Of a stretch of DNA of 57,877 nt, positions 3,333 through 18,682 are shown one piece after another. The DNA is from an uncultured Gammaproteobacteria bacterium (GTDB lineage Bacteria; Patescibacteriota; Microgenomatia; UBA12405), in contig CAYTYZ010000006.1 of the NCBI GenBank assembly GCA_964442385.1, positions 1 to 57,877 on the forward strand, read 5' to 3'. The notes under the pieces were generated by a model. The model was not told the DNA's origin, made no database searches, and saw only the letters and a program-made list of their open reading frames with translations. The position numbers were made by a program, and so were the translations under genes. The number at the start of each line of letters is the position of its first letter. Within the stretch, counting starts at the first letter, position 1.

Positions 3333-3402
3333 ATACATCCTCATATATATTAACAGCAAATTAAGAGTACAATGGGGTGTTAGTCATATTTTTTTACCCC
3401 CT

Positions 3403-3747: not shown

Positions 3748-4205
3748 AGACTATACTAGCCAAGATCTACAAGGCCTTGCATCTGACAAAGTCACTTCAA
3801 CTCTTGGCCATGCGTTTTCTTCAAGATCAATTTCTAGTAGGTGTAACTGGCATCATTTTTAATGACAAAAAAGAAATTTTACTATTCAAACACACCTACC
3901 GTACCCACTCATGGAGCCTTCCCGGTGGCTATTTAAAGTCGGGAGAACATCCCCGCGAGGCCTTGGAAAGAGAAATTAAAGAAGAATCAGGACTAGTTGT
4001 TAGTGTTGACGCCCCGCTTAAGACCCGTACCGATCGCGATTCTGCCAGGCTAGATCTTTGTTACACTGGTGTACTCATTGGTGGCGAATTTAAGGGAACC
4101 CATGAGGTTTCTGAATATGGATTTTATTCCATGGACAAGTTGCCCTTACTACGTAAAAACCAACTATTTCTAGTACATGAAGCACTTCAACTACTTGCTC
4201 CTTGA
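3744..4205 (+). CDS. Nudix hydrolase
   Basis: Nudix box GGYLKSGEHPREALEREIKEESGL. The GTG start overlaps the upstream stop (GTGA). Confidence 0.8.
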   Translation: MKTILAKIYKALHLTKSLQLLAMRFLQDQFLVGVTGIIFNDKKEILLFKHTYRTHSWSLPGGYLKSGEHPREALEREIKEESGLVVSVDAPLKTRTDRDSARLDLCYTGVLIGGEFKGTHEVSEYGFYSMDKLPLLRKNQLFLVHEALQLLAP

Positions 4206-4238
4206 CATGCACTTGTAGTTGCTGTAATATATTAATAT

Positions 4239-4406
4239 ATGGCAGATAATTCAAAGCAAAGAATAACCTTGTTTTTAAATCCTTCTCTGGCCAAGCATGC
4301 TCGTGCCCAAGCAGTAATTGATGATGTAACCCTAACCGTCTTAGTTGAAAGAGCATTGCTCTCCTACCTACCAGCAGAAACAGTAATAAAAAAAATAACT
4401 ACTTAA
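4239..4406 (+). CDS. Small 55-aa protein, possibly ribbon-helix-helix (CopG-like)
   Basis: Below the track length cutoff. My translation is MADNSKQRITLFLNPSLAKHARAQAVIDDVTLTVLVERALLSYLPAETVIKKITT, with the beta-strand (ITLFL) then two helices typical of RHH. Confidence 0.4.
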   Translation: MADNSKQRITLFLNPSLAKHARAQAVIDDVTLTVLVERALLSYLPAETVIKKITT

Positions 4407-4447
4407 ATATTGGCTTTATTTGTTTGATTAAGTGAAAAAGAAAATAT

Positions 4448-4657
4448 ATGGCTACTATAGTAAACAATCCACCAACCTCAGGTGATGGTGGAAGCGGGTT
4501 CTTGGTTGGTGTCGTCGTGCTGATCGGGTTTTTCTTAGTTTTAGTTTATTTTGGTCTTCCAGAGCTAAGGAGACTCAGCTCCAATCAGCAAAATAGTCCC
4601 TTGCCACAAATAGTTGTTCCAGACAAACTGGATGTGAATATCAACCAAACAAAATAA
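4448..4657 (+). CDS. Small single-pass membrane protein
   Basis: 69-aa ORF with one TM (FLVGVVVLIGFFLVLVYFGL), in a run of co-oriented small membrane-protein genes. Confidence 0.45.
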   Translation: MATIVNNPPTSGDGGSGFLVGVVVLIGFFLVLVYFGLPELRRLSSNQQNSPLPQIVVPDKLDVNINQTK

Positions 4658-4683
4658 TTTAATAATTTAGTTTTAAACAAAAT

Positions 4684-4932
4684 ATGGGTATTATACTATG
4701 GGTAATTTTTGGAGCACTGGCTGGCTGGATTGCTTCACTTGTCATGAAAACAGATTCTAACCAAGGAACTGGTATGGATATAGTTATGGGTATAGCCGGT
4801 TCAGTAATCGGTGGCTTTCTCATGAGTCTCATAGGCCAATCTGGGGTTACCGGTTTTAATATGTATAGCTTAATTGTGGCTGTAATTGGTGCCGTAGCGC
4901 TTATCTATTTAGCCCGCATAGTTCGAAAATAA
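4684..4932 (+). CDS. GlsB/YeaQ/YmgE family (transglycosylase-associated) stress membrane protein
   Basis: MGIILWVIFGALAGWIASLVM..GMDIVMGIAGSVIGGFL matches the Gly-rich TM pattern of this family, and the size of about 82 aa fits. Confidence 0.75.
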   Translation: MGIILWVIFGALAGWIASLVMKTDSNQGTGMDIVMGIAGSVIGGFLMSLIGQSGVTGFNMYSLIVAVIGAVALIYLARIVRK

Positions 4933-4934
4933 AT

Positions 4935-5153
4935 ATGTCTAAAAATATCAAAAACAATACTGTCCTAAGTGTAAACCCTGTTATGGCCGCCGTTGCTGCC
5001 GTAGGTGTTGTAGGTGCCGGTGTGGCAGTTGCAGGCGCGATTGTTATGTCTGACGAGATAAACCAAGACAAGGTAAAAGAAGTTTTGGCCAATGCTCAAG
5101 ATAAAAAAGAACAGATTAAAGAAAACGTAATTAAAGGAGTAGAAAAAGTATGA
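4935..5153 (+). CDS. Small membrane protein with an Ala/Gly/Val-rich TM and a charged tail
   Basis: 72-aa ORF tightly packed against both neighbours, with an ATGA overlap to the next gene. Confidence 0.45.
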   Translation: MSKNIKNNTVLSVNPVMAAVAAVGVVGAGVAVAGAIVMSDEINQDKVKEVLANAQDKKEQIKENVIKGVEKV

Positions 5154-5551
5154 CAGAATTTGTTAAAGAAACAGTAACTACTCAAACTTCAGATCCAGAT
5201 ATTATCTTGACAACTCCGGTCCCAGAACAGGCTGATGCCACCAAGACCCAAAAAACCGAGTATGTGATTTACTATTTTTTAGGGGCCTTAGAAATCCTCT
5301 TAGCCTTTAGACTGGTTTTAAAGATTACTGGTGCCAGTTTGTCCAGTGGATTTGTCGGCCTTATTTATGGCTTAAGTGGAATTTTTGTACTACCCTTTGA
5401 AGGCATCTTTCGCAGAGGTGTTTCACAGGGTCTAGAAACTGCTTCAGTCCTCGAGCCCTCCACTATCGTGGCCATGATCGTTTACGCCATCCTTGCCTGG
5501 GGTGGAGTCAAGTTGGCTCTACTACTTTCTGGTAAACAACAACCTGCTTAA
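5150..5551 (+). CDS. YggT-family-like membrane protein
   Basis: YYFLGALEILLAFRLVLKITGA followed by LPFEGIFRR resembles the YGGT repeat. Confidence 0.5.
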   Translation: MTEFVKETVTTQTSDPDIILTTPVPEQADATKTQKTEYVIYYFLGALEILLAFRLVLKITGASLSSGFVGLIYGLSGIFVLPFEGIFRRGVSQGLETASVLEPSTIVAMIVYAILAWGGVKLALLLSGKQQPA

Positions 5552-5584
5552 GTTTGCTAGTTAATTATTTTAATTTTTATAAAT

Positions 5585-5728
5585 ATGAATATCTCTCTCG
5601 GCAATCTTAGCCCTTTAGCCTCTATAGTTTTTGGGGTGCTAATTTTAATGTTTCCCAAGTTTCTAAATTATTTAATAGCAGGGTATCTAATAATCGTCGG
5701 ACTTTTAGGTCTCGGTATCCTAAGATAA
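5585..5728 (+). CDS. DUF3096-like 47-aa membrane protein
   Basis: Below the track cutoff. My translation is MNISLGNLSPLASIVFGVLILMFPKFLNYLIAGYLIIVGLLGLGILR. Confidence 0.45.
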   Translation: MNISLGNLSPLASIVFGVLILMFPKFLNYLIAGYLIIVGLLGLGILR

Positions 5729-5772
5729 ATATTTCTTAGTTTTACAATTATCAATGGAGATCCTAGATCTTG

Positions 5773-6279
5773 TTAATAAACACAACTATATTTTGCGTCA
5801 AAACAGTATTCCAAATCGATTAGGCTATATCTAGGATCTGGCCCACCCTTTCTTCGGTTGATTATAATAAACCCCAATTTCTTGTACATTTTTAAAGCTG
5901 GTTTAAAGAAAGGATGTTGGCTAGTTGTAACCATAGCCTTACTTAATGGCAACTCTTTAAGCCGTTTTATTACCTCCTCTATTTGTTTATGTCCCAAACC
6001 TCGATTTCTAAATTCTGGCAAAACGCAGTTCTGGCCAATTTCTCCACTTCTTGGGTCCCAGGATGCCAGTCCCACAATTTTGTTATTTTCCCAAGTAACG
6101 AACAAACATTTACCAATAGTTTCAGGATAGTCAAAAACCAGCTTGTCAAAGTTGTTCCACTTTAATTTTTCGTCTTTCTACACACCAGACGACTCTGTAC
6201 TTAGGTCTTTATAGCTTTCAGCAAGGATTTTACTAAGTTGTCCACGCGATAAGCTCAGAGCCGACAAGAACTTAATCAT
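5773..6279 (-). pseudogene. GNAT N-acetyltransferase interrupted by one in-frame TAG (codon 34, coordinates 6180..6178)
   Basis: ATG 6279..6277 overlaps the TGA of the upstream gene (ATGA). The reading is MIKFLSALSLSRGQLSKILAESYKDLSTESSGV*KDEKLKWNNFDKLVFDYPETIGKCLFVTWENNKIVG..., continuing in the same frame into the track ORF 5773..6105. That ORF carries the GNAT core EFRNRGLGHKQIEEV. Confidence 0.7.
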
Positions 6280-6587
6280 TTTATTTTCTTAATTTCCCTA
6301 AGCCCAATTATTGTCAAAATGATAATTAAGGCTTTTAACAGGTAGTGACCATCTAAATCCATAAAATATTTTGTCATTAAAGTTCTTTGCCCAACCAGCA
6401 AGTGGATCAAAATACTAATTGGCAATGTCCATATCAACCAAATCTTTCTTGAAATTTCCAGTTTTATTAAGTCAAATAATTTCGACAAAACAGGGGACAG
6501 TAGTCCCATACCAACAAAGGCTAGGGTCATATCAAAAATCGCATATTCACCCAACCTAAATTGCCGTAGACTTTCGATGGTTATCAT
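6276..6587 (-). CDS. Polytopic small membrane protein
   Basis: 103-aa ORF with three hydrophobic segments, translationally coupled to the GNAT gene downstream. Confidence 0.5.
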   Translation of the reverse strand: MITIESLRQFRLGEYAIFDMTLAFVGMGLLSPVLSKLFDLIKLEISRKIWLIWTLPISILIHLLVGQRTLMTKYFMDLDGHYLLKALIIILTIIGLREIKKIK

Positions 6588-6648
6588 ACTTTATTATACT
6601 TCTTTTTCCAGCTTGACTTACTGCTTTAGGTCTAATATGCTGTTTATA

Positions 6649-6760
6649 GCATTGTCCAGAGAATCTCCATTCCGCCTTGCGGAGTAGGGGTCGGCAACCG
6701 AGACTACAATAGTAGGTCCACGGTGCCAAGAACCTCGGCGTTAGTCGGGCTCAGACATGC
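6649..6760 (+). promoter_or_regulatory. SAM riboswitch candidate (SAM-I / SAM-IV clan) in the metK leader
   Basis: P1 is GCAUUGUC (6649-6656) pairing with GACAUGC (6754-6760). J1/2 is CAGAGAA. P2 is CUCC..CCGC-cuu-GCGG..GGGG. P3 is the hallmark GGCAACC..(CUAC-aaua-GUAG)..GGUGCC, followed by AAGAACC. It sits directly upstream of the metK RBS (GGAGG 6776-6780). Confidence 0.55.
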
Positions 6761-6785
6761 CTCTTATAAATTAATGGAGGAAAAA

Positions 6786-7892
6786 ATGAACTATTCCCTT
6801 TTTGCGTCCGAGTCTGTGTGTGCTGGTCATCCCGACAAAGTGGCTGATCAAATTTCTGATGCTGTGGTTGATGCAGCTCTTTCAGTTGATCCACTTTCCA
6901 GGGTGGCCTGCGAAACTCTGGTAACCACCAATAAAATTATTTTAGCCGGCGAAATTACCTGTCCTAAAAAACTAAATTTTAAAACTATAGCCAGAGCTAA
7001 AATAAAAGAATTGGGTTACACCAACCCCGAGTTTAATTTTACAAGTGAGTCCGATATCGAGGTTTACATCCACCAGCAGTCGCCCGATATTGCCCTCGGT
7101 GTAGACGATGGGGGAGCTGGCGATCAGGGAATGATGTTTGGTTATGCTTGTAATGAAACGACTAGTCTTATGCCGCTTCCCATAACCTTATCACACGAGC
7201 TGTGCCAAAAAATGGACGAGCCGCAAGAGCTGTATTCCTGGCTGCGTCCCGATGGTAAATCAGCCGTTACTGTAAATTACCTAGATGGCCAGCCTGTTTC
7301 TGTTGGAGCTATCGTCCTAGCCAAGCCCCTTGATTACTCTCAAATAGACAGTAAAGAAGCCAAGCAAATACTTATAAATGAGGTCATCATACCAATTTTA
7401 GAAAAATATAAACTAAAAAATATCACGGCAGACAAGGTAATATTCAATGGTACTGGCAAGTGGGAAATTGGCGGACCAGCCTCCGATACAGGTGTAACCG
7501 GACGCAAAATTATTGTGGATACATATGGCGGTATGGCTCGTATTGGCGGCGGTTGCTTTTCTGGAAAAGACCCCACCAAGGTTGACCGTTCCGCGGCTTA
7601 TGCAGCCAGGTTTATTGCCAAAAACATTATTGCAGCTGGTCTAGCCACCAGAGCCGAAGTCCAAATTGCGTATGCAATTGGTGTTCGCGATCCTATTGGT
7701 AAGGCCATCGAAACATTTGGAACATCTAAAAAAAGCCAAAAGGTAATCGAAGATTTTGCATGGGGTCTACTAGATCTATCAGTTGGTGGAATTTGCCAAG
7801 CCCTAGATTTACGCCAGCCAATTTACCAAGCCACTGCCCGCTATGGTCACTTTGGAAATCCATCGTATCCTTGGGAAAAAATAGTGCAATAA
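6786..7892 (+). CDS. metK: S-adenosylmethionine synthetase
   Basis: Start refined to MNYSLFASESVCAGHPDKVADQISDA, preceded by a GGAGG RBS. Further motifs are GAGDQGMMFGYA, DTYGG and GGGCFSGKDPTKVDRSAAY. Confidence 0.95.
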   Translation: MNYSLFASESVCAGHPDKVADQISDAVVDAALSVDPLSRVACETLVTTNKIILAGEITCPKKLNFKTIARAKIKELGYTNPEFNFTSESDIEVYIHQQSPDIALGVDDGGAGDQGMMFGYACNETTSLMPLPITLSHELCQKMDEPQELYSWLRPDGKSAVTVNYLDGQPVSVGAIVLAKPLDYSQIDSKEAKQILINEVIIPILEKYKLKNITADKVIFNGTGKWEIGGPASDTGVTGRKIIVDTYGGMARIGGGCFSGKDPTKVDRSAAYAARFIAKNIIAAGLATRAEVQIAYAIGVRDPIGKAIETFGTSKKSQKVIEDFAWGLLDLSVGGICQALDLRQPIYQATARYGHFGNPSYPWEKIVQ

Positions 7893-7920
7893 CTGGAAAG
7901 CTATTGCACTGACTTAATTT
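7875..7920. terminator. Bidirectional hairpin spanning the convergent stop codons of metK and the 7901..8596 gene
   Basis: AGTGCAATA (7883-7891) pairs with TATTGCACT (7902-7910) around a 10-nt loop. A T-run follows on the minus strand (complement of gaaaaaa at 7874-7880), and a T-rich stretch follows on the plus strand. Confidence 0.45.
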
Positions 7921-8596
7921 CTTTCTCTGGCATAGTACCATCAAAGCTCACGCCGTTTTGGTCCAGCTTTAGTGTTCTGATGTACAAATTTGGCACAGCC
8001 CTAATTCGCTCTTCGGCAAATCCATTGGCTGTAGACAGGTTTGAGCTAACCAAAGAACTTGGCACACTAATTCTACCAATTTGGACTTCACTCGGTACCA
8101 TGCTCACCTGGTTGTTGGTTATACTTACCCTACCTTTTAAATAAAATGGTGGATTAGCACTAATATGATATTTCTCCATAGCTTCTTTTACTTCTGCAGT
8201 GGAGTGAGTTAGCGATACAAAAGGTAAAATCTTATCCACATGTAGTATACCTGAAGCCTCGCCACTCCCATCTGGATATATCTTTATTTGAACTTTGGAT
8301 ATTGGGCTATACTGCCAGTTGTTACCGTTTACGATAGCCGTAATTTCACTCGAACTCATGGTAAATTTAACCTCTTTTTTACCCTCATATCGAACACTTT
8401 TTGTAATATCGTTTACTGCTGGTAGGGTAGTGGCCACCACTCCATTTTTCAGGTAAGCACTGGCCTTATCTTGCTTTGTGTAAGTTATTCCCAAGTCTCG
8501 CGGAGAAGTCATGCCTCCGACTAAATACCACCCAGTCACTAGTACCCCCACGATAATTACGACCAGCAGACCAAAAATTACTTTGACTGCACCCAT
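7901..8596 (-). CDS. Membrane-anchored hypothetical protein
   Basis: 231-aa ORF with an N-terminal TM (VIFGLLVVIIVGVLVTGWYLV) and a beta-rich extracytoplasmic remainder. Confidence 0.5.
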   Translation of the reverse strand: MGAVKVIFGLLVVIIVGVLVTGWYLVGGMTSPRDLGITYTKQDKASAYLKNGVVATTLPAVNDITKSVRYEGKKEVKFTMSSSEITAIVNGNNWQYSPISKVQIKIYPDGSGEASGILHVDKILPFVSLTHSTAEVKEAMEKYHISANPPFYLKGRVSITNNQVSMVPSEVQIGRISVPSSLVSSNLSTANGFAEERIRAVPNLYIRTLKLDQNGVSFDGTMPEKEIKSVQ

Positions 8597-8619
8597 ACCA
8601 TATTATACTCCTTAAAAAT

Positions 8620-9357
8620 TTAGAGTAAAAATTTATCCAAAAATATTCCAATCTTTGCGTTTACCTCTTTGATAATTTCAGGATGTCGGCGATAACTGTG
8701 GTCAGTATTTAGTTCAATTAGCATCTTTGGTTCTGGAATCGACTGGTATATTTCCTCAATTTCTCCAGGTGTATAAAATTTGTCGTTAGTTCCTGAAAAT
8801 AATAATTTAGGCTTATTACAGTTTCTCAAAATTGTCAGTGGCTCATATTTTTCACCGTCCTTAAAATAATTTAATGGCAGGGCAAACTCTTTTTGTTCTT
8901 TGGTTCTAACACTGCCTGGAGGTAAATCTCTGTGTTCTATTTGAACCCCATTGGCTAGATTGCTTGGACGAGTAGGTGATTCGTATGAAGACATTACCAA
9001 AACTATTCCCGTTACATGTGGATTTTCGCTAGCCAATATAGCTACATTTCCTCCCCGGCTATGCCCTAGCAGTAAAGTTGGTTTATTCCCCAAATAGTCA
9101 ATAAGATCATTTACAGCTTTTAAATAATTTATGGTTGTAAAAAGTTCAATTCCTCCAGGACTTTCCCAGGTTCCAGGTGGGTCAAGCGCTACTGCGTAAA
9201 ACCCCTTATTTGCCAATAACTCGCTATGGCTTTCAAAATTGGCATAATCTTTTGTGTCCAGCCTGCCGGGAAGTAAAATTGCCACTTTTTTAGCATTTTT
9301 ATCGCCTTTGGCATTTATAGCCAAATCAAAAGACTTCGTACTAACAATATTCATCAT
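8620..9357 (-). CDS. Alpha/beta hydrolase
   Basis: Nucleophile elbow LLLGHSRGGN and a C-terminal DHSY histidine region; 245 aa. Confidence 0.7.
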   Translation of the reverse strand: MMNIVSTKSFDLAINAKGDKNAKKVAILLPGRLDTKDYANFESHSELLANKGFYAVALDPPGTWESPGGIELFTTINYLKAVNDLIDYLGNKPTLLLGHSRGGNVAILASENPHVTGIVLVMSSYESPTRPSNLANGVQIEHRDLPPGSVRTKEQKEFALPLNYFKDGEKYEPLTILRNCNKPKLLFSGTNDKFYTPGEIEEIYQSIPEPKMLIELNTDHSYRRHPEIIKEVNAKIGIFLDKFLL

Positions 9358-9371
9358 CCAAGTATATCAAT

Positions 9372-9932
9372 ATGTTATTCTTGGCTATGCACTCAGCCTT
9401 GGTTATTATCGATATGCAACAAGATTTCTTTAAAAAAGACGAGCTGACAGTGCAAAAAGACTTCCTAATTAAAAATATAAACCAACTTGTAGCCCATTTT
9501 AGGGACAAATCTCTTCCCATAATTTGGCTTCGCCAAACCATGAAAGCTGATCTGTCTGACGCTCCTCTTGGTCCCAAAAATACTGGTACAGCTTTCGTAG
9601 TTGAGGGTACCCCTGGCAGCCAGCTTTTGCCTGGTTTGGACTTTTTATCTTCAGATATTGAAATTATTAAAAAGCGTTACAGCGGTTTTTACCAGACCAA
9701 CCTTGAGGATACTTTAAAGAGTTTGAGCGTAGACACCTTGGTGGTATCTGGCATAAACTCTCACGCCTGTGTCAGGGTTACCGTAGTCGATGCCTATCAA
9801 AGAGATTTCGATGTAATTGTTGCCCAAGACTGCGTTGCTTCCTGGGACCCTCCCCACCACGCCATCACCATGAAATACTTTGTCCCCACCATAGCCAAAG
9901 TAATGACCAATTCAGAGATTCTAAGCTTGTGA
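9372..9932 (+). CDS. Isochorismatase-family cysteine hydrolase (nicotinamidase-like)
   Basis: ALVIIDMQQDFF, KKRYSGFYQTNLEDTLK and LVVSGINSHACVRVTVVDA (catalytic Cys). Confidence 0.8.
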   Translation: MLFLAMHSALVIIDMQQDFFKKDELTVQKDFLIKNINQLVAHFRDKSLPIIWLRQTMKADLSDAPLGPKNTGTAFVVEGTPGSQLLPGLDFLSSDIEIIKKRYSGFYQTNLEDTLKSLSVDTLVVSGINSHACVRVTVVDAYQRDFDVIVAQDCVASWDPPHHAITMKYFVPTIAKVMTNSEILSL

Positions 9933-9946
9933 TAATACCTATAATA

Positions 9947-9975
9947 TTGACTTTATATCACTTTTCAAGTATACT
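9947..9975 (+). promoter_or_regulatory. Sigma70-type promoter for the serpin-like gene
   Basis: TTGACT (9947-9952), a 17-nt spacer, then TATACT (9970-9975). This implies a leader of roughly 215 nt. Confidence 0.5.
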
Positions 9976-10015
9976 TAACCATTACACATCAAGTGTAAGC
10001 ATTCAAATACAGGTT

Positions 10016-10117
10016 GGATATTGCATCTAACTTTTGTTTCTGTCCTTTTAAAAATAGATACTTCAATATTTTGCATCTACTGGTTGGTGGCTATTTGGAC
10101 ATAATATTTTGTATCTA
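10016..10117 (+). repeat. Three imperfect direct repeats AATATT(TT)G(C/T)ATCTA in the leader
   Basis: Copies end at 10029, 10079 and 10117. GGTTGG precedes copies 1 and 3. A 9-bp inverted repeat, TGGCTATTT (10088-10096) with AAATAGCCA (10118-10126), brackets copy 3. Confidence 0.55.
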
Positions 10118-10197
10118 AATAGCCATCAATCAAAGTTAATGCAAAAGTAGATTACTTTGATGACCACACTGGTCATGGCAATACACAAGGAGAAAAC

Positions 10198-11076
10198 ATG
10201 AGCTCATCACTAGGTTTGTTAACAATCGCCAGAGCCATGATTGAGGCTGAAGGTCTTCTTGGTGGCCAATGCACTTGGAAAGCCACCAACCCAACTCAAA
10301 AGGAACTACTTTCCCGTTTGACCGTTTTGCGGCAAGCGGTGACCAAAGTACCCACCCTACAGGGCTGGGCTAAAAAAACAGCCGAAGAACTAAATCAAAT
10401 TCTGCGCGAGAATGGCCTGAGCATTCAGCTTCGACCGTGGCTTCCAGGCTCCGGCTTCGGCGTCGTGGCCATCAACAAGTACGGCGTACAGTGGCTTTCA
10501 CCGGGTCTCACCTCGCTTTTTGAGGGCGGCCCCAGGCTGGAGGTTCTAGGACACCCAGCTTTTCTTCTCAAGAGCAGTACCGCCAGAGTCAAAATCTGGG
10601 AGACCAAAAGCAGGAAACTGATCGTCAAGGTCCCAACTAAATCCGGCGACACGCTTTGCCTCAGTATGGAAGACAGGCCTCTCACAGGCTTTGGGCTGCA
10701 TGAGTACGTTGAAAGTTTGCAAGCAGAGCAGGTCAAATCCTTCTATGGTTACGAAGGAGCTATTCTTCCAATGGTCAAGCATGGGCTTCCCGTAGATTTG
10801 GATTGGCTTCGTTTTATGGAAGTCTACTCCTCAGTTGACGGTAACTGGTTCATTAGCCAGGCTCTGCAGGAAATTCAGTTCTCCATGAATCAGTTTGGTG
10901 CAGCAGTCACAGAGGCAGCAGCCATGTCCTTTGCCAGGGGGATGCCCCAGTACCTAGAGGTCAACAAACCTTTTGTTCTTTGGATTGAGCGTCCTGGTGT
11001 GGAAATTCCCCTTAATGTTTTCCATATCACTCCAGAGGACTGGAAAGATCCTGGTAATCTTGCCAAAAGTATGTAG
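10198..11076 (+). CDS. Compact serpin-like protein (292 aa)
   Basis: The C-terminus LEVNKPFVLWI fits the PROSITE serpin signature as I recall it. A hinge-like FGAAVTEAAAMS lies upstream. AINKYGVQW resembles NAIYFKG.W, and VKVPTKSGDTLCLSM resembles LPY.g.lSM. AAGGAG RBS. G+C is visibly above the flanks. Confidence 0.6.
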   Translation: MSSSLGLLTIARAMIEAEGLLGGQCTWKATNPTQKELLSRLTVLRQAVTKVPTLQGWAKKTAEELNQILRENGLSIQLRPWLPGSGFGVVAINKYGVQWLSPGLTSLFEGGPRLEVLGHPAFLLKSSTARVKIWETKSRKLIVKVPTKSGDTLCLSMEDRPLTGFGLHEYVESLQAEQVKSFYGYEGAILPMVKHGLPVDLDWLRFMEVYSSVDGNWFISQALQEIQFSMNQFGAAVTEAAAMSFARGMPQYLEVNKPFVLWIERPGVEIPLNVFHITPEDWKDPGNLAKSM

Positions 11077-11091
11077 TTTGAAGTAGTCTTC

Positions 11092-11129
11092 TCCGCCGGG
11101 TAGCCCAAAGGGCAACGGCGGATTTTTTT
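11092..11129 (+). terminator. Rho-independent terminator
   Basis: CCGCCG (11093-11098) pairs with CGGCGG (11116-11121), with an inner GCCC-aaa-GGGC stem and then T7 (11123-11129). Confidence 0.8.
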
Positions 11130-11130
11130 A

Positions 11131-11616
11131 TTACTTTTCTTCGCTTACTTCCATTTCTGGAATCTCGACTCGTGCTTCTGGCATAGACTCAGCTTCTGCC
11201 TTAACTTCCTTTTTTTCTTTCTTTTTCTTGGGAGCAGGAGCAACAGCTGTGTCTCCTGACAAAAGTGAAATGAGTTTGTCTAATTTAGCGTTAAGTTCAT
11301 TAAATTGGCGTCCATAATCTGGTTGGTCATAGTTTCTAGTTTCCACTCTTGGCCTGGATGAAAAGGACCTTTCCCCTCCAAAGCTTCTATTTTCGCCTTG
11401 TGGTGCTCCGCCCCCTTCTTTTTCAAAACAGTTACTACAATACACTGGTTTTCTACCATTTGGCCGAAAAGGCAGCTCACAAGGTCGTCCACATTTATCA
11501 CAGGTGGCCGAATACATTTTTCTTTCTTCACCGCCCCCTCCACCTCCAAAGTCCCGTCTTGGACCTCCAAAACTTCTATTTCCACCACTAAAGCCACCAC
11601 GATTATTGTTATACAT
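11131..11616 (-). CDS. CxxC-x17-CxxC domain protein with Gly/Arg-rich N-terminus and Lys/Glu-rich tail
   Basis: Start refined to MYNNNRGGFSGGNRSFGG. The core is CDKCGRPCELPFRPNGRKPVYCSNC (CxxC, 17 residues, CxxC). Confidence 0.75.
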   Translation of the reverse strand: MYNNNRGGFSGGNRSFGGPRRDFGGGGGGEERKMYSATCDKCGRPCELPFRPNGRKPVYCSNCFEKEGGGAPQGENRSFGGERSFSSRPRVETRNYDQPDYGRQFNELNAKLDKLISLLSGDTAVAPAPKKKKEKKEVKAEAESMPEARVEIPEMEVSEEK

Positions 11617-11705
11617 ATTTAAGTATAATACACTAAATATTGGCAATAGTATGGGCAAGTTATATGTCCCGATATCAACAGAAAACATTTTAGGTAGAAT
11701 TAGTC

Positions 11706-12863
11706 ATGTTTGACAGTCTTACTATTGACAACTCCAAGCATAAACTCCAAATTCCTGATTTTAATCCAGAAAATATCACAGGCTACATAAACGAGCCTGT
11801 CCACTATCTCAACGACCCTGAACCGAATATGGTTGCAAGTAGGTTTGGCAATATCATGTATCGTCTGGGTCAACTAACCAAGCTTTCTGCCCATTTTCGT
11901 ACACCCTTTGATCGATCTAAAGCCCAAGAATTGCTCAGTCAAATAAAAGACCACCGCGTACGATCTGATTCGCATAGTCATCTTTACAAAGAGTTGAAAG
12001 AGCGTGGCAAAATAGCAAAAAAATATTTACAGCAGGGATCAGTTTGTGTTTACATGGGTACTTTGGGGATACAAAAATCACCACTTGTGATTATACCTCC
12101 CCCAAGAGTTGACCCAAGGTTCAGCGCTCGTCCAGTAGTTTTGATACCTGGTATCAGTAACGGATTGGCTGGAATAGAAACCCTCATTAAAGAATTTGCC
12201 TACCAGGGGAGAATTGTAATTGCTCTAGGCCAGCCCGAAAGTTTTATGGGTAGTGTGACACCAAGTTTTGCTCAGGCTGTCGAAGAATCTAGTCAACTTT
12301 CCCCACATATAGAATTTTACAAGAGAGCCATCGCTCTTACTTTGCAAGAACGTTTTGGAAACAAAGTTAAAATCGATTTGGTAGGTCATTCTACTGGTTG
12401 CCCTATGATTGCTGGTCTACTTGCCGACAAACACTACCAAGACATATGTGCCAATGTATGCTTAGTCTCTCCGGCAGCCGTTGCCGAACAGTCGGTCCTG
12501 TCGTTTGATTTAGCAACTATCCCAGAAATATATTATTTATTAGTTAGACATGGCGCTTTGGCCAACTTTAATAGAAATGATCAGCCTCAGGAACCAGTTA
12601 AAGCTCGAGCTACCCAAGGGGTAAAGCGCAACATTATCCATTTTTTACAAGGTCTTTACAAAAATGCCCATTTGTCTAACCATAGGCGAATTTCAGTAAT
12701 TTCTTGCGATGATGATCATATTGTAAAAAGCAGACAAGCCCAAGATGCTCTTGCCAAACTAAATCCCGATATTGATTTTATTCCGCTCAGTAGGGCTACT
12801 CATGCCGAAGCTTTAATAAACCCACAGAGAGTCGTAACGCTAATACAATCTATTCTAAAATAA
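11706..12863 (+). CDS. Alpha/beta-hydrolase-fold protein
   Basis: Nucleophile elbow DLVGHSTGCPM and a late THAEALINP histidine; 385 aa. Confidence 0.6.
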   Translation: MFDSLTIDNSKHKLQIPDFNPENITGYINEPVHYLNDPEPNMVASRFGNIMYRLGQLTKLSAHFRTPFDRSKAQELLSQIKDHRVRSDSHSHLYKELKERGKIAKKYLQQGSVCVYMGTLGIQKSPLVIIPPPRVDPRFSARPVVLIPGISNGLAGIETLIKEFAYQGRIVIALGQPESFMGSVTPSFAQAVEESSQLSPHIEFYKRAIALTLQERFGNKVKIDLVGHSTGCPMIAGLLADKHYQDICANVCLVSPAAVAEQSVLSFDLATIPEIYYLLVRHGALANFNRNDQPQEPVKARATQGVKRNIIHFLQGLYKNAHLSNHRRISVISCDDDHIVKSRQAQDALAKLNPDIDFIPLSRATHAEALINPQRVVTLIQSILK

Positions 12864-13374
12864 CTCCCAAGCCATATAGTAAACTCATGGCACCAGGAAG
12901 TGAGAATTTGGCCCCCTTAATAGTAGCTGACCTAACATCAATAAAATAATTTTTTGCACCAAGCAGATTTGCTTTGGTTAAATTAGTCTTGGCAAACACA
13001 GTTTTTTCAAAATCACTATTCTGCAGTTGTGATTCGCTTAAATTGGCCTCCGTAAAATCACATTCTTTTGCCATACATTCCCTAATCACAATTTTAGGTA
13101 GCGACAATAGTCTAAAATTTGAATAACTAAGTTCGCAATTTTTAAAAACCAAGTTTTCTACTTTAGCTGCCCTAGTCCAATCCATTCCCATTATATTGCA
13201 GTCAATAAACTCCACATCCACAAACTGGCTATCACTAATATCCACTGCACTTAAAATACACCCTTTAAATTGACAGTTCACAAACCTACACTTAATAAAC
13301 TTGCACTGACTATATTTACAATCCAAAAACCTTTCTTCCTCAAACTCCTTTTTTGAAAATATTTTTCCCACCAT
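12850..13374 (-). CDS. Pentapeptide-repeat protein
   Basis: Continuous A(D/N)LxX-type repeats (CKFIKCRFVNCQFKGCILSAVDISDSQFVDVEF..ANLSESQLQNSDFEKTVFAKTNLTKANL). Confidence 0.8.
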   Translation of the reverse strand: MVGKIFSKKEFEEERFLDCKYSQCKFIKCRFVNCQFKGCILSAVDISDSQFVDVEFIDCNIMGMDWTRAAKVENLVFKNCELSYSNFRLLSLPKIVIRECMAKECDFTEANLSESQLQNSDFEKTVFAKTNLTKANLLGAKNYFIDVRSATIKGAKFSLPGAMSLLYGLGVILE

Positions 13375-14381: not shown

Positions 14382-14885
14382 ATGGTAAAACCATTCCCAC
14401 CCATGGCTATATTTAAACCAGGGGTGTTATCTGTGACAGTTTTTAGTGAAATTAATTATTTTCTAATTGTTATCTATTCGGCAATCTTAATTAACATCCA
14501 AGATATATCAAAAATTAATATAAATTCATTTTACTTACTATTTATTTTATTAATTGTTTTGTCACTTGTGTCCGCGTTTATATCAACGAAAATAGTAATA
14601 ACTGGACCAAAACTAACATCCTTCAGCCCAATTAGCTCCGGTCACGAATTTAATATTAATCAACCTTTTGAGGTTGAAGCTCGTAGAAGGAGATGGAACA
14701 CAGAAGGGAACATCACTATTTTCCCCACTTACTCATATATTGATTTTTACTTGTCTTCAGATATCGCCCATAGGTCGAACCAGCATATCTCTCTTGGGTT
14801 AGGGTGGAGTAAAAATGATGTTATCAAATTATTTACATATCTTCAGAATAATTATCCAAATATTAAGCAACTATACTTTCCATAA
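14382..14885 (+). CDS. Hypothetical membrane protein
   Basis: 167-aa ORF with two or three N-terminal TM segments. Its stop overlaps the next gene's start (TAATG). Confidence 0.45.
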   Translation: MVKPFPPMAIFKPGVLSVTVFSEINYFLIVIYSAILINIQDISKININSFYLLFILLIVLSLVSAFISTKIVITGPKLTSFSPISSGHEFNINQPFEVEARRRRWNTEGNITIFPTYSYIDFYLSSDIAHRSNQHISLGLGWSKNDVIKLFTYLQNNYPNIKQLYFP

Positions 14886-15418
14886 TGAAAACTACAAGCC
14901 CCTTTAAAACCACCTGGGTGACTTCGGACAAAGTTAATCCTAGTGAGCAACATGTTCCTGTCACGCAAGTTTATTGTTGGATTATTTCAAAGGATGGACA
15001 AGTATGCATAGTTTCCAAAGACAATCAGTCCTGGCAACTGCCTGGAGGTCACCCTTTGCCAGGTGAAAATATAAGCCAAACAGTAGTACGTGAAGTGGCA
15101 GAAGAAGCAGGACTAGATTTATCCCACAGTCAGAACGATATTCAGCTCTTTGGCTATAATAATGTCAAAAAACTATCAGACACTGGAACAGTTATCGACC
15201 ATTTTTTACAGCTTAGAACGTATTGTTTTATTGACAAATTGGCCAAGGATTACATACTCTTACCCCAAGAAAAACCAACCGAAAAAATTGAATATAGAAT
15301 CATTTCTGCTAAATTTGTCACGATGGAAAAATTGCTTGAACTAATACCATGGCTATCTACCAGTCCAGAGTATAACGCCATAAAAAAAGCCCCTATCGGT
15401 GATTTTCATCACCTCTAG
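14885..15418 (+). CDS. Nudix hydrolase
   Basis: Nudix box GGHPLPGENISQTVVREVAEEAGL. Confidence 0.8.
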   Translation: MKTTSPFKTTWVTSDKVNPSEQHVPVTQVYCWIISKDGQVCIVSKDNQSWQLPGGHPLPGENISQTVVREVAEEAGLDLSHSQNDIQLFGYNNVKKLSDTGTVIDHFLQLRTYCFIDKLAKDYILLPQEKPTEKIEYRIISAKFVTMEKLLELIPWLSTSPEYNAIKKAPIGDFHHL

Positions 15419-15453: not shown

Positions 15454-16062
15454 CTAGTTTGGTAAACTGACAGCAGCAGCCACCCTATCTAGGGTGATGA
15501 CTCCATCGTTACAAAGTTTGTCAAGCAATTGAAGGTTTGGCAAATGCGCGTCACATGCGCCGATTTTTACCTGAATTCGGTCGGGCTCATGTACACGATA
15601 ATCAAGTAGCGCACCATTTGCAACTTTATCGAACATTTGGATAATTCTTTGACCCGAAGCCTTGCATTGCACGAAAGCGGCAATGTTATTAAGATATATA
15701 TGCCCCATCCTATCACGATCACGGGTTCCACAGACAAAGCAAGTACAAGAATCCAAACCTATGCCTCGGGACCAAAAGAATTCGCCACCCCCTTCGGGTT
15801 GTTTATCTGGTTTACCATGAGAATCAATTCCCTCGCGAGGGTGTTTTTGAAGTTCAGGATAAAAGCTGCCAAATCCGATGGCTGACTTCTTAACGTCATC
15901 AGCCAGAACAGCAAAGCTAACTTCGCATTCACCACAGGATACTATTGCTGTACCTCCCCCTGATATTGGCGAGTAGCCAGATCGATAGCCACAATTGGGG
16001 CATCCCCACTTTTGGTACTCATTCGCTGCGACAGCAATTGGTTGTTTGATGCCATCAGTCAT
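15454..16062 (-). CDS. Cys-rich zinc-ribbon protein of unknown function
   Basis: Start refined to MTDGIKQP, with AAGGAAG 6 nt upstream. It contains CPNC-x20-CGEC, then CTCFVC, plus further Cys and His (QCK, GACDAH, LCND). It overlaps the upstream paralog by 8 nt, so they form an operon. Confidence 0.6.
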   Translation of the reverse strand: MTDGIKQPIAVAANEYQKWGCPNCGYRSGYSPISGGGTAIVSCGECEVSFAVLADDVKKSAIGFGSFYPELQKHPREGIDSHGKPDKQPEGGGEFFWSRGIGLDSCTCFVCGTRDRDRMGHIYLNNIAAFVQCKASGQRIIQMFDKVANGALLDYRVHEPDRIQVKIGACDAHLPNLQLLDKLCNDGVITLDRVAAAVSLPN

Positions 16063-16417
16063 TTTGTTCTTCCTTCTTTGGTTTGTCACCAAACTTCATT
16101 TGCTCGTCGTTTACCTCTTTAAGAAAGAGGTGAGCTTCGCTGGCAATATCCTTGTCGTCGACCAGGGCATCAACGATCTGTGGAATACACAAATATAGAA
16201 CTGAAAAGGTATCCAGGCCATAGTCAGTCGTGTTTGAAAATTCGTTGATTATGACAATCAATTGCCTGACTAGGCTATACGCACTCATTTTCTGACCTGC
16301 CAATTTGACAAGAGCCTGATTAAAAGGCCCTGCCACTCTCTCATCCAAACCTAACTGCGCCGTTTCCATTCGTGCAACAATCTCTTTCGCACTCGGAAGT
16401 TTGACGGTCTTATCCAT
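16055..16417 (-). CDS. Small helical protein, paralog 1 of 3
   Basis: 120 aa with an AAGGAG RBS. It shares GLDE(R/Q)V..FNQ.L..LA.Q and LCIPQI(V/I)DALVDDK with the next gene. Confidence 0.65.
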   Translation of the reverse strand: MDKTVKLPSAKEIVARMETAQLGLDERVAGPFNQALVKLAGQKMSAYSLVRQLIVIINEFSNTTDYGLDTFSVLYLCIPQIVDALVDDKDIASEAHLFLKEVNDEQMKFGDKPKKEEQND

Positions 16418-16434
16418 GTCTTTCTCCTTCTTGG

Positions 16435-16779
16435 TTAGTTTTTGGTTTTTGACATTGAAGCAAGTACTTCTTCGTAATAGCGCTTGGCTTCCTCGACAAC
16501 ACCTTTGTCGTCGACCAAAGCGTCAATAATCTGTGGAATGCAGAGCAATAGGACTTCATAGAAGTTAGGGCCATAATCACCTGTTTTTGTAAATCTGTAG
16601 ATCACCACACCCAGTAGTATGACCAAGCTCTGCCCACTGACTGCCTGGTCAGCCAATCCGATAAGACACTGATTAAAGAGCCGTCCCACTTGCTCATCCA
16701 ACCCAATCTGCATTTTCTCCAGCCGGGTTTGAAACTTTTCCCCGGCAGGAAGTCTGGTATAAAACCTTGGGTTACTCAT
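16435..16779 (-). CDS. Small helical protein, paralog 2 of 3
   Basis: 114 aa with an AGGAG RBS; colinear with 16055..16417. Confidence 0.65.
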   Translation of the reverse strand: MSNPRFYTRLPAGEKFQTRLEKMQIGLDEQVGRLFNQCLIGLADQAVSGQSLVILLGVVIYRFTKTGDYGPNFYEVLLLCIPQIIDALVDDKGVVEEAKRYYEEVLASMSKTKN

Positions 16780-16816
16780 ATTTTTGCTCCTTTTTTTGGT
16801 TTACGCCGTTTTTTTT

Positions 16817-17158
16817 CTACGAATAAACTGCTTGTGTGCGAATCATCTTTCCATAAAATTCCTTGGCTTCTGTGGCAATATCTTCGTTTTCCACCAGAAT
16901 ACCGATAATAAAGGTAACTTTTGTACTCAAGAATGCATCCATATCACGTGGATATCCACCACTTTTCACAAATTTGGAAATTGCATCAAGAATCACCCCA
17001 ACCATATGCTTCCGATAAATCGAACCCCGGGTAACTTTGTAAATAAACCCAAAGAGGTCTTCGTTCGAGAACCGCTCGGACAGAGGTGGGGTATTTGCAA
17101 CTAGACGCATTGCCTCGTCTATATTCCGAAGCACCACAAACTCAACTTGCTTGCTCAC
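16817..17158 (-). CDS. Small helical protein, divergent paralog 3 of 3
   Basis: Start refined to GTG 17158..17156, with AAGGAG 6 nt upstream. The C-terminal IIGILVENEDIATEAKEFY aligns with DALVDDKDIASEAHLFL and DALVDDKGVVEEAKRYY in the other two. Confidence 0.55.
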   Translation of the reverse strand: MSKQVEFVVLRNIDEAMRLVANTPPLSERFSNEDLFGFIYKVTRGSIYRKHMVGVILDAISKFVKSGGYPRDMDAFLSTKVTFIIGILVENEDIATEAKEFYGKMIRTQAVYS

Positions 17159-17349
17159 GTTGTTCTCCTTCTTACTTTTTTTCTTGTTTTCTAACCGAAT
17201 GGTTAGCACACTAAGCAAAAAAATTTGCCCAGAATGCTAACCATTGATTTTATAAGAAGATATGTTTTCCGCAACTTTTTAAAGAGCACTATTTACAAGT
17301 TTTAAATTTACCCACAGCAATTGTGGATTATTTAATTCTTGAATACATA

Positions 17350-17384
17350 AGTATATCAAAAAACATATATTTTGCAATATTATA
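17350..17384 (-). promoter_or_regulatory. Promoter for the three-paralog / zinc-ribbon operon
   Basis: On the minus strand: TTGCAA (17377-17372), a 16-nt spacer, then TATACT (17355-17350). An alternative TATAAT lies at 17384-17379. Either way the leader is about 185 nt. Confidence 0.45.
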
Positions 17385-17416: not shown

Positions 17417-18682
17417 CTAATCTACTAGACAAATACCCAACTCTCGGTTGGTTTTCAGTATGTTTCGGTTGGTTTTATCTAGCTCCAGTTTCTTTCTCAA
17501 CCTTGATACAAACTTATCAAAAGCCCAGTCAGTAGGATATTCGTCTTTACCCCAAACATTCTCCATAATTTCTTCGCGACTAAAAACTTTATTTGGGCTA
17601 TCCGACATAAAAGTTAATAGTCGATACTCTCTCTTTGACAATAGATTGTTAATTAATTTACCTAAAAAGAACAGCTGTTCATTTTCCTTGTCATACACAA
17701 ATGGAGCAATACTTTGCTTGCCAGATTTTAAATAGGTGTCTAGAAGTGGTGAAAAAACTTTGATTTTGTTATCGATCACAGATTGAAAACCTAATTTAAT
17801 TAATAGCTCATCTTTTTGGTTTGTTTTTAGTTTGGCTATTTGCAAGTCAGTCAAGCTACTTAATATTCTTTGACATTGAAACATTATCTCCTCCTCGTTA
17901 CATAGATTTGTTATTTTTTTTGCATAATTTGTCTGTGACACTTTTGATAATGTTTGAACACAAAATTTAATCAATCCTGCATGTCCTCCACAAAGTTCAA
18001 TAATCTTATTCTTTTCTTTATCTGTCAAGTTAACCTGATATCTGTGGCAATTTCTTTGCAGTACCCACCCGGCCTGGTCTTCAGAAAATGGCGTCATAAA
18101 AACCATTTTCTGAAAGAAAAAAGTCACCGGCTCAAAAGGCCTAACTCCTCCAAAAATAAATACCAAAGAAAATCTGGCCGCGTTTCTTAGAGCTATTAAT
18201 TGGTGGTAAACCAGATCCAAATCCATTTTTCTAGCTTGGTCAAAATTATTAAAAAGAAACACAATTATTTTTCCGGTCTTGTTTGCCACATTGGCCAGAT
18301 CTTCTTTTAGAGATTTTAAAAGAATATTAGGCTGGTCTATAAATATTTGGTTTAAATAAGTACTCTCCAATCCTAGTTTTGTAGCTTCTTCCATCAAGCT
18401 AGCACTTATTAAGTGGTACAAGCTAGGCAGGGTAAACGATCCCAGTTCATTTAAATCTACTAATACAAACATATATTTATCCGCCTCAGCCCCTAAATAT
18501 TTTGTTTGCACATCTGCACGTCTTGAAATATATCTCATTACGTTTATCTTGCAGTTATCCTTCATGCCGATAAACGAAAAAGATTCGCTTCTTTTTAATA
18601 AGTCAAAAATATCTCCAACCACATCTTGCCGGTAATCTAGGGGAAAATTATCCTCCAGCACCAGGTGTTTATCCAGTTCCAT
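17417..18682 (-). CDS. Transcriptional regulator with an N-terminal STAND/AAA-like NTPase fold (degenerate Walker A) and a C-terminal OmpR/PhoB-type winged helix
   Basis: The C-terminus LSKREYRLLTFMSDSPNKVFSREEIMENVWGKDEYPTDWAFDKFVSRLRKKL matches trans_reg_C. In the N-terminal part, FSFIGMKDNCKINV sits where GxxGxGKT is expected, IIVFLFNNFDQA is Walker-B-like, and LCGGHAGLIKF is STAND-like. Confidence 0.65.
   Translation of the reverse strand: MELDKHLVLEDNFPLDYRQDVVGDIFDLLKRSESFSFIGMKDNCKINVMRYISRRADVQTKYLGAEADKYMFVLVDLNELGSFTLPSLYHLISASLMEEATKLGLESTYLNQIFIDQPNILLKSLKEDLANVANKTGKIIVFLFNNFDQARKMDLDLVYHQLIALRNAARFSLVFIFGGVRPFEPVTFFFQKMVFMTPFSEDQAGWVLQRNCHRYQVNLTDKEKNKIIELCGGHAGLIKFCVQTLSKVSQTNYAKKITNLCNEEEIMFQCQRILSSLTDLQIAKLKTNQKDELLIKLGFQSVIDNKIKVFSPLLDTYLKSGKQSIAPFVYDKENEQLFFLGKLINNLLSKREYRLLTFMSDSPNKVFSREEIMENVWGKDEYPTDWAFDKFVSRLRKKLELDKTNRNILKTNRELGICLVD

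What the first reader, a model, noticed from the sequence alone, without database searches (positions are those of the whole stretch)
15454..17158. Three tandem small helical paralogs followed by an overlapping Cys-rich zinc-ribbon gene
The three roughly 115-aa proteins share a colinear pattern: GLDE.V..FNQ near the N-terminus and LCIPQI(V/I)DALVDDK..EA near the C-terminus. The third copy is much more diverged (IIGILVENEDIATEAKEFY). Each has its own strong SD. The last paralog overlaps by 8 nt a 202-aa protein carrying CPNC-x20-CGEC, CTCFVC and further Cys and His, which suggests a metal centre. G+C is visibly higher than in neighbouring genes; one 60-nt line I counted is 50%. Nothing in the sequences let me name the family.
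Basis: seen in the sequence. Interest (0 to 1): 0.62.

Follow-up and report, generated by a model that had tools for sequence, protein, structure and literature searches.

The report
Two undescribed gene families, one operon
A tiny-genome (Patescibacteria) bacterium carries a tight four-gene operon: three copies of an unnamed small helical protein, then an unnamed two-zinc-site protein; both families are real and resemble nothing characterised, but they sit together only in this genome, so there is no sign that they work as a pair.

Summary
On the minus strand, 17158-15454 encodes three about 115-aa helical proteins and a 202-aa Cys-rich protein that overlaps the last paralog by 8 nt.

- **Paralogs:** copies 2 and 3 are clear paralogs (49% identity, E 3e-32). 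Copy 1 is a true but fast-evolving member: a profile built only from outside relatives scores it 44.8 bits over its full length.
- **Helical family:** this is a real, unnamed family of about 50 representatives. It occurs in 9 of 401 Patescibacteria genomes.
- **Zinc family:** about 150 homologs, 50-70% identical across Patescibacteria classes. Its about 100-aa C-terminal core also occurs in DPANN archaea and large phages. It occurs in 6 of 401 genomes.
- **No known relative:** neither family matches Pfam, NCBIfam, PHROGs, PADLOC or PDB sequences. Both AlphaFold models are confident (pLDDT 93 and 94) and have no significant PDB fold match.
- **No linkage:** both families are absent from the 40 nearest genomes. 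Elsewhere they never co-occur, are never adjacent and are never fused (55 and 9 loci).
- **G+C:** the raised G+C is a property of the families. The zinc gene exceeds its flanks in 31 of 31 loci.

Function is unknown. My best guess is a protein with structural zinc that binds nucleic acid or nucleotide, beside small acidic adaptor proteins. Interest is moderate.

The parts
16817..17158 (-). P0001: first and most diverged helical paralog (113 aa, GTG start, SD AAGGAG at 17170-17165)
   Evidence: An HMM built only from outside family members scores it 44.8 bits, aligned over residues 6-109. Its tree branch is very long, 3.35 changes per site, and its placement is unresolved.
16435..16779 (-). P0002: helical paralog (114 aa, SD AAAGGAG at 16793-16787)
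   Evidence: The AlphaFold model has pLDDT 94.3, with six helices and two short strands. It is sister to P0003 with support 99/88.
16055..16417 (-). P0003: helical paralog (120 aa, SD GAAGGAG at 16430-16424)
   Evidence: It is 49% identical to P0002 (E 3e-32).
16055..16062 (-). 8-nt overlap ATGACTGA: the stop codon of P0003 lies inside the start of P0004, which suggests translational coupling
   Evidence: Read directly from the sequence. The SD GAAGGAAG at 16076-16069 lies inside the 3' end of P0003.
15454..16062 (-). P0004: 202-aa protein with two predicted zinc sites. Residues 20-50 form an N-terminal C4 zinc ribbon (C21, C24, C43, C46). A highly conserved linker follows (HPRxGxxSHGxPDKxPEGGGEFF). 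The C-terminal alpha/beta core carries the second site, CxxC...CxxH (C108, C111, C170, H173).
   Evidence: It has 149 homologs, with invariant columns listed. The AlphaFold model has pLDDT 93.0. There is no PDB fold match; the only significant BFVD match is one 158-aa viral protein.
17350..17377 (-). Promoter-like site TTGCAA-16 nt-TATACT with TG upstream, about 190 nt before the P0001 start
   Evidence: This is a consensus match only; the number of such sites found equals the number in shuffled sequence, so it is weak evidence.
17198..17245 (-). 22-nt imperfect inverted repeat (82% complementary, 4-nt loop) in the leader, just upstream of the P0001 SD
   Evidence: I2. Function was not tested. 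No T-run follows, so it is not an intrinsic terminator.

Best explanation
The four genes form a real, tightly packed operon, probably co-translated. It is a lineage-specific juxtaposition of two independent, undescribed accessory gene families, not a conserved two-component system.

Family 1 (helical):
- About 105-115 aa, mildly acidic, with a six-helix fold.
- Motifs: LPsxEEIxxRL ... FYP ... GYPP ... vPxfIDALVDDxEVAxEAKxF.
- It was expanded here by local tandem duplication. P0002 and P0003 are sisters. P0001 is an old or fast-evolving copy that has lost most family motifs.

Family 2 (zinc):
- A C4 zinc ribbon plus an about 100-aa alpha/beta core domain.
- Core motifs: RGIG, CxxC, N[IL][SA][GA]FV, KxxGxR, LDYRxxEP, QVK[IV]GACxxH.
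- The core is scattered patchily over Patescibacteria, DPANN archaea and large phages.

Inferred, not shown:
- Both zinc sites are structural.
- The invariant Arg, Lys, Asn and Gln surface of the core, together with the ribbon, binds nucleic acid or a nucleotide.
- The helical proteins are small binding or adaptor proteins. Any interplay with the zinc protein would be specific to this genome.
For: The genes are real and packed:
- Each has a Shine-Dalgarno site; gaps are 37 and 17 nt; the last pair overlaps by 8 nt.
- Both families are conserved in many metagenomes.

Duplication:
- P0002 and P0003 are sisters with support 99/88.
- The genome holds only these three copies.
- P0001 is a family member by an outside-only HMM.

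Independence of the two families:
- Phylum sample of 401 genomes: helical family in 9, zinc family in 6, overlap only the window's genome.
- 55 distinct zinc loci have no helical gene, and 9 helical loci have no zinc gene.
- No neighbour family recurs.
- No domain fusions exist.
- Upstream neighbours of the zinc gene differ from locus to locus.

Accessory status:
- Both families are absent from the 40 nearest genomes, including two of the same genus.
- Copies 57-60% identical to P0004 occur in Saccharibacteria, Nealsonbacteria, WWE3, Levyibacteriota and Paceibacterota. Core-only relatives occur in Micrarchaeota, Woesearchaeota, Nanoarchaeia and Aenigmatarchaeota, and in viral contigs.
- Homologs occur in about 200-kb Rhizobium phages.
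- The same-genus ortholog of the upstream regulator is not followed by the cassette.

Structural zinc:
- The ligands are invariant in the Patescibacteria members.
- The second site is absent in the Rhizobium-phage and gut-phage homologs, which keep RGIG, FV, G-R, LD-R, EP and QVK.
Against: - The 8-nt overlap and the shared operon are what one expects of proteins that act together, and they could be partners in this lineage.
- A previous note on another Patescibacteria genome (e1-852873), and loci L010 and L013, also show unrelated small genes packed directly upstream of the zinc gene. A 'variable small gene plus conserved zinc gene' rule is therefore not excluded.
- The functional part (nucleic-acid or nucleotide binding) rests only on residue types and on the generic character of zinc ribbons. 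No fold or sequence relative of known function was found.
- Gene neighbourhoods were read from crude ORF calls and from only 9 helical loci.
Confidence: 0.55

Rival explanations
1. The helical proteins and the zinc protein form a true functional module. The helical proteins would act as chaperones, inhibitors or specificity subunits of the zinc protein, and the three paralogs would give three variants.
For: The genes share one operon with an 8-nt overlap. In L010, L013 and the genome of note e1-852873 the zinc gene is also preceded by tightly packed small genes, although these are unrelated to the helical family.
Against: There is no co-occurrence in 401 genomes beyond this one, no adjacency in 55 plus 9 other loci and no fusion. 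Most zinc genes stand alone behind 100-430-bp intergenic regions. Helical genes stand alone elsewhere.
Confidence: 0.2
2. The cassette is horizontally acquired conflict cargo, such as a toxin-antitoxin or immunity pair, a phage-defence system or an anti-defence system.
For: Both families are distributed patchily yet are well conserved. The zinc core occurs in large phages and viral contigs. One helical member lies on a contig full of small zinc-finger ORFs, with Ku and a topoisomerase-IB-like gene. GC3 of P0002 and P0003 is at the 96th-97th percentile of the genome.
Against: There are no PADLOC hits. No partner is conserved. The helical family is absent from 50,697 phage records. The raised G+C is intrinsic to the families in all hosts, and GC3 of P0004 is ordinary.
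Confidence: 0.12
3. P0004 is a metalloenzyme whose Cys/His cluster is a catalytic metal centre.
For: The ligands are invariant, and many polar residues are invariant too (H74, D86, E94, R99, N126, R139, R156, Q164, K166). The linker motif is extremely conserved.
Against: Site 1 is a canonical C4 ribbon, with only weak generic matches to Zn_ribbon_IS1595, L37ae and Lar. Site 2 is missing in phage homologs that keep the core. No enzyme fold was matched.
Confidence: 0.1
4. P0001 is not a functional paralog but a decaying copy, or an ORF that resembles the family by chance.
For: Pairwise similarity is weak. The motifs LP, FYP and IDALVDD are lost. The tree branch is the longest, at 3.35.
Against: The frame is open over its full length with a strong SD. 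The outside-only HMM gives a colinear 44.8-bit match that includes GGYP and IATEAKEFY.
Confidence: 0.1

Closest known systems
C4 zinc-ribbon domains (Pfam Zn_ribbon_IS1595 PF12760, Ribosomal_L37ae PF01780, Lar_restr_allev PF14354, DUF7838 PF25208)
   Same: Residues 20-50 of P0004 have CxxC-x18-CxxC on a predicted three-stranded sheet. Weak matches recur across homologs: 26 of 64 members hit PF12760 (best E 0.0011), and the family profile hits L37ae chains at E about 0.01.
   Different: All matches are below the curated cut-offs and cover only about 30 residues. The other 150 residues (linker and core domain) match nothing.
Hypothetical 158-aa protein of Rhizobium phages of Kleczkowskaviridae (for example QIG71849.1 of RHph_TM2_3B); BFVD model A0A7S5R5G8, also 158 aa, is probably the same protein, but its identity was not verified
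   Same: It is homologous to the C-terminal core of P0004: tblastn gives 31% identity over residues 66-202 (E 5e-10), and Foldseek gives E 5e-8, TM 0.58 and rmsd 2.2 A over 112 columns.
   Different: It has no zinc ribbon and no CxxC...CxxH site, and it is itself uncharacterised. It lies in an early region with NAD and nucleotide-metabolism genes, not beside helical genes.
MqsA-type antitoxins (N-terminal zinc domain, encoded downstream of their toxin). This comparison comes from memory, as a lead only.
   Same: A zinc-binding N-terminal domain, and a gene placed downstream of small genes and overlapping the last one.
   Different: There is no HTH domain, no conserved upstream partner, no PADLOC or Pfam hit, and most homologs stand alone.
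LAGLIDADG homing endonucleases (best PDB Foldseek rows, for example 6bcn_A)
   Same: The beta-beta-alpha-beta-beta-alpha order of the P0004 core resembles the LAGLIDADG half-site topology.
   Different: The match is not significant (E 0.57, TM 0.22, rmsd 7.7 A). There is no LAGLIDADG helix or motif.

Membership tests
C4 zinc ribbon (rubredoxin-like knuckle pair) | Two CxxC knuckles 15-30 residues apart on a small beta-sheet, with the Cys residues conserved | tested here: met
   C21, C24, C43 and C46 are invariant or at least 90% conserved in 64 homologs. The model has strands at 29-35, 38-43 and 49-53. Pfam matches to ribbon families are below threshold.
Any curated protein family (Pfam-A, NCBIfam, PHROGs, PADLOC) for the helical paralogs | A score at or above the family cut-off | tested here: not met
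   No hit below E 0.07 for P0001-P0003. No family is shared by more than 1 of 48 members.
Any curated protein family for the P0004 linker and core domain | A score at or above the family cut-off outside the ribbon | tested here: not met
   Searches returned only ribbon-type sub-threshold matches.
Known folds in the PDB | Foldseek E <= 0.001 or TM >= 0.5 to a solved structure | tested here: not met
   P0004 model: best E 0.57, TM 0.22. Helical model: best E 1.1, TM <= 0.42. AlphaFold DB for cellular proteins was not available.
Globins (suggested by the hit to P0126, a protein of 14 globin repeats) | A significant per-domain match or a globin fold | tested here: not met
   Each near-identical repeat scores 5.3 bits with the two-sequence profile and 0.4 bits with the family profile, so the summed score is a repeat artefact. 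Globin entries reach only TM 0.26-0.32.
Toxin-antitoxin or toxin-immunity pair, or another obligate two-gene system | The two families co-occur and are adjacent across genomes | tested here: not met
   The only overlap in 401 genomes is the window's own genome. Adjacency is 0 of 55 and 0 of 9. There are no fusions.
HNH / His-Me finger nucleases | A conserved catalytic His at the end of a beta-strand plus Asn/His on the following helix, often between two CxxC pairs | tested here: not met
   H121 of P0004 is not conserved; most homologs read CFVCGG....NNIAAFV with no His. There is no Pfam HNH hit and no fold match.
Integrated mobile element or prophage cargo | An integrase or recombinase, a tRNA target, flanking repeats or phage structural genes nearby | tested here: inconclusive
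I did not annotate every ORF of the window. G+C is raised, but this is intrinsic to the families.

The most novel reading that the evidence does not exclude
The about 100-aa core of P0004 (RGIG ... CxxC ... NI[SA][GA]FV ... LDYRxxEP ... QVK[IV]GACxxH) would be a new zinc-stabilised fold, shared by episymbiotic bacteria (Patescibacteria), DPANN archaea and large phages, that acts on a conserved nucleic-acid or nucleotide target. In this genome it would have recruited an expanded helical family as lineage-specific modulators, making a new two-part module.
Probability: 0.12. Interest if true: 0.65.

Novelty: new variant of a known kind. Interest (0 to 1): 0.4.

Why it matters
Patescibacteria and DPANN genomes are small, yet a large share of their genes has no assigned function.

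This work delimits two such families. Each now has an alignment, motifs, a confident structural model with no solved counterpart, and a known distribution. One of them has a core domain shared among ultra-small bacteria, ultra-small archaea and large phages. That pattern usually marks genes moving between symbionts and their viruses.

Neither family is linked to a known pathway, so the gain is a well-defined target for structural and biochemical work, not a new mechanism.

The work also gives a caution. Tight operon packing and raised G+C suggested a functional pair in a foreign island, and comparative data support neither reading.

Tried and rejected
- **Globin relationship of the helical family.** The 1.4e-24 hit to a 2461-aa protein is the sum of 14 near-identical repeats scoring 5 bits each. 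Rejected.
- **Word-based homolog search with P0003.** It found only itself. The exhaustive HMMER search was needed to find the family.
- **The search for related loci with the helical alignment.** It failed because no stretch of the alignment is conserved enough.
- **Helical family in phages.** No match in the phage collection.
- **Regulator link.** The TGTCAGC repeats of the regulator's own promoter are absent upstream of the cassette. The same-genus regulator ortholog has a different downstream gene.
- **DNA synteny with same-genus genomes.** The genomes are too diverged to use, at about 66% identity.
- **Rfam.** No RNA family was found in the window or in upstream regions of homologs.
- **Fusion partners.** Extended zinc-family proteins contain no known domain.
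- **NUDIX association of the zinc family.** At background level, 1 of 55 loci.
- **Recent import as the cause of raised G+C.** Not supported for P0004: its GC3 is ordinary, and the gene is richer in G+C than its flanks in 31 of 31 genomes.
- **Multimer prediction.** Not available.
Full report
**What is in the sequence**

The minus strand between 17158 and 15454 carries four close-packed ORFs:
- P0001, 17158-16817, 113 aa, GTG start
- P0002, 16779-16435, 114 aa
- P0003, 16417-16055, 120 aa
- P0004, 16062-15454, 202 aa

Each gene is preceded by a Shine-Dalgarno sequence: AAGGAG 17170-17165, AAAGGAG 16793-16787, GAAGGAG 16430-16424 and GAAGGAAG 16076-16069. The gaps between genes are 37 and 17 nt. 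P0003 and P0004 overlap by 8 nt (ATGACTGA). The leader holds a promoter-like site (17377-17350) and a 22-nt inverted repeat (17198-17245).

**Are the three small genes paralogs?**

P0002 and P0003 are 49% identical over 97 residues (E 3e-32). P0001 is weak in pairwise comparison (E 4e-6 to P0002; nothing to P0003).

An exhaustive HMMER search of 1.84 billion representatives, using a P0002+P0003 profile, found about 50 proteins of 100-115 aa that match end to end. They share these motifs: LPsxEEIxxRL, FYP, GYPP and vPxfIDALVDDxEVAxEAKxF (alignment A4). An HMM built from the 45 outside members alone scores P0003 at 90.8 bits, P0002 at 83.9 bits and P0001 at 44.8 bits over its full length. All three are therefore members of one real family.

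In a maximum-likelihood tree P0002 and P0003 are sisters (support 99/88). P0001 sits on the longest branch, 3.35 changes per site, and its place is unresolved. The genome holds no further copy. I read this as local tandem duplication plus one old or fast-evolving copy.

The top 'hit', a 2461-aa protein, consists of 14 near-identical globin repeats. Each scores 5 bits, or 0.4 bits with the family profile, so the summed score is an artefact.

**The zinc protein**

P0004 has 149 homologs at E <= 0.001, about 47-72% identical among those listed, and all are annotated as hypothetical. In 64 aligned homologs the following are invariant or at least 90% conserved:
- the zinc-ribbon ligands C21, C24, C43 and C46
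- the second set C108, C111, C170 and H173
- H74, D86, E94, R99, N126, R139, R156, Q164 and K166

The AlphaFold model built on this alignment is confident (pLDDT 93.0, pTM 0.78). It consists of a three-stranded ribbon, a long ordered linker (HPRxGxxSHGxPDKxPEGGGEFF) and a beta-beta-alpha-beta-beta-alpha core.

Foldseek finds no significant PDB relative (best E 0.57, TM 0.22). The only significant match in the viral model library is one 158-aa protein (E 5e-8). It has the same length as a hypothetical protein of about 200-kb Rhizobium phages that tblastn also finds, so it is probably the same protein.

Scans of other collections extend the family:
- In species genomes it occurs in Saccharibacteria, Nealsonbacteria, WWE3, Levyibacteriota, Paceibacterota, Moraniibacteriota and Kaiserbacteria.
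- The about 100-aa core alone occurs in Micrarchaeota, Woesearchaeota, Nanoarchaeia and Aenigmatarchaeota, in a few other MAGs, and in eight viral contigs of 16-260 kb.

Across this whole range G (of RGIG), the first Cys, G (of KxxGxR), QVK, G, H and two Leu are invariant. The Rhizobium-phage and gut-phage versions lack the CxxC...CxxH ligands but keep the rest. This is why I take the second zinc site to be structural.

No Pfam, NCBIfam, PHROG or PDB-sequence match exists for the linker or core, or for any domain fused to them.

**The helical fold**

The family model is also confident (pLDDT 94.3, pTM 0.86). It has six helices and two short strands. It has no PDB counterpart (best E 1.1) and no PDB sequence relative. 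Members are mildly acidic, with a median pI of 5.1.

**Do the two families belong together?**

The window lies in a 1.14-Mb, 92%-complete Patescibacteria genome. Neither family occurs in the 40 nearest genomes, two of them in the same genus. The only exceptions are one weak partial hit for each family, each in a different same-family genome.

In an even sample of 401 genomes of the phylum, the helical family is in 9 and the zinc family in 6. The only genome with both is this one.

I collected 55 distinct zinc-family loci and 9 helical-family loci, with 1.5-6 kb of flank on each side:
- No zinc locus has a helical gene, and no helical locus has a zinc gene.
- No other neighbour family recurs.
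- Neither profile hits any extended protein of the other family.
- Zinc genes mostly stand alone, often behind 100-430-bp intergenic regions. Where a small gene is packed upstream (L010, L013), it is unrelated to the helical family.

I could neither confirm nor exclude a general 'variable small gene plus zinc gene' rule with crude ORF calls: 5 of 28 loci have a close upstream ORF on the same strand.

The OmpR-type regulator upstream of the cassette has a 53%-identical ortholog in a same-genus genome. That ortholog is followed by a membrane glycosyltransferase-like gene, not by this cassette. The regulator's promoter repeat TGTCAGC is also absent from the cassette leader.

**G+C**

The cassette is 44.3% G+C against 39.6% for the genome, the 94th percentile of windows of the same size.

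The zinc gene is richer in G+C than its flanks in 31 of 31 loci, by 8.7 points on average, in hosts of 34-63% G+C. The helical gene is richer in 8 of 9 loci, by 5.6 points on average. GC3 of P0004 is ordinary (77th percentile). Its excess therefore lies in codon positions 1 and 2, which points to amino-acid composition.

GC3 of P0002 and P0003 is high (96th-97th percentile). This leaves room for a later import of the helical genes.

**Interpretation**

Shown:
- The operon is real.
- It contains two real, undescribed families.
- The helical genes duplicated locally.
- Both families are patchy accessory genes.
- Their juxtaposition is unique to this lineage.

Inferred:
- The zinc sites are structural.
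- A nucleic-acid- or nucleotide-binding role for P0004 is suggested by the ribbon and the invariant basic and polar core residues, and a binding or adaptor role is suggested for the helical proteins.

I put about 0.55 on the overall reading, but only about 0.25 on the functional guess. A true lineage-specific partnership remains possible (about 0.2) because of the translational coupling.

**Comparison with what is known**

The N-terminal 30 residues are an ordinary C4 zinc ribbon. Everything else lies outside every library I could search. I therefore rate the finding as a new variant of a known kind: a zinc-ribbon protein with an undescribed core domain, beside an undescribed small helical family. 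It is not a new kind of system, because nothing shows that it is a system.

Noticed in passing
window 14885-15418 (+); L021 788-1240; L022 918-1160: A NUDIX-box gene lies within 250 bp of the helical-family gene in 2 of 9 other loci (uncorrected Poisson P about 0.011). Here a NUDIX gene ends 35 bp from the cassette. The NUDIX proteins are not orthologous (30-40% identity around the NUDIX box only), and the zinc family shows no such enrichment.
   Followed up: partly
window 17198-17245 (leader of the cassette): A 22-nt imperfect inverted repeat (82% complementary, 4-nt loop) lies directly upstream of the P0001 ribosome-binding site. No T-run follows. It could be a regulatory hairpin or an operator.
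   Followed up: no
31 zinc-family loci (for example L004, L048, L013) and 9 helical-family loci: Genes of both families are consistently richer in G+C than their flanks, whatever the host G+C (31 of 31 loci, +8.7 points; 8 of 9 loci, +5.6 points). Only for the window's own P0004 was GC3 measured; it is ordinary, which there points to amino-acid composition.
   Followed up: partly
L017 (ENA contig k139_719857), 3300-9800: One helical-family gene sits on a contig dense with small Cys-rich ORFs, a Ku homolog, two tRNAs and a topoisomerase-IB-like gene that overlaps it by 4 nt. This looks like a phage or another mobile element.
   Followed up: no
L033 / G049:C1:198807-200114: One Patescibacteria genome carries two diverged zinc-family genes in tandem (226 and 224 aa), so this family can also duplicate locally.
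   Followed up: no
L036 (Rhizobium phage RHph_TM2_3B, record 2839-13228): The phage homolog of the zinc core lies in an early region with a phosphoribosyltransferase-like gene, a bifunctional NMN adenylyltransferase/NUDIX gene and adenylosuccinate synthetase. These are NAD and nucleotide-metabolism genes.
   Followed up: no
P0019, P0034, P0047 (zinc-family proteins of about 300 aa): Three homologs share an extra C-terminal domain of about 100 aa (GWPF.EEPGF...HFFD.YV..FF) that has no Pfam match. Other homologs carry unrelated helical tails or N-terminal extensions.
   Followed up: partly
window 17417-18682 (-) and L091 3529-4749: The 421-aa protein with a C-terminal OmpR/PhoB-type winged helix and no receiver domain has a 53%-identical ortholog in a same-genus genome, in a different gene context.
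   Followed up: partly
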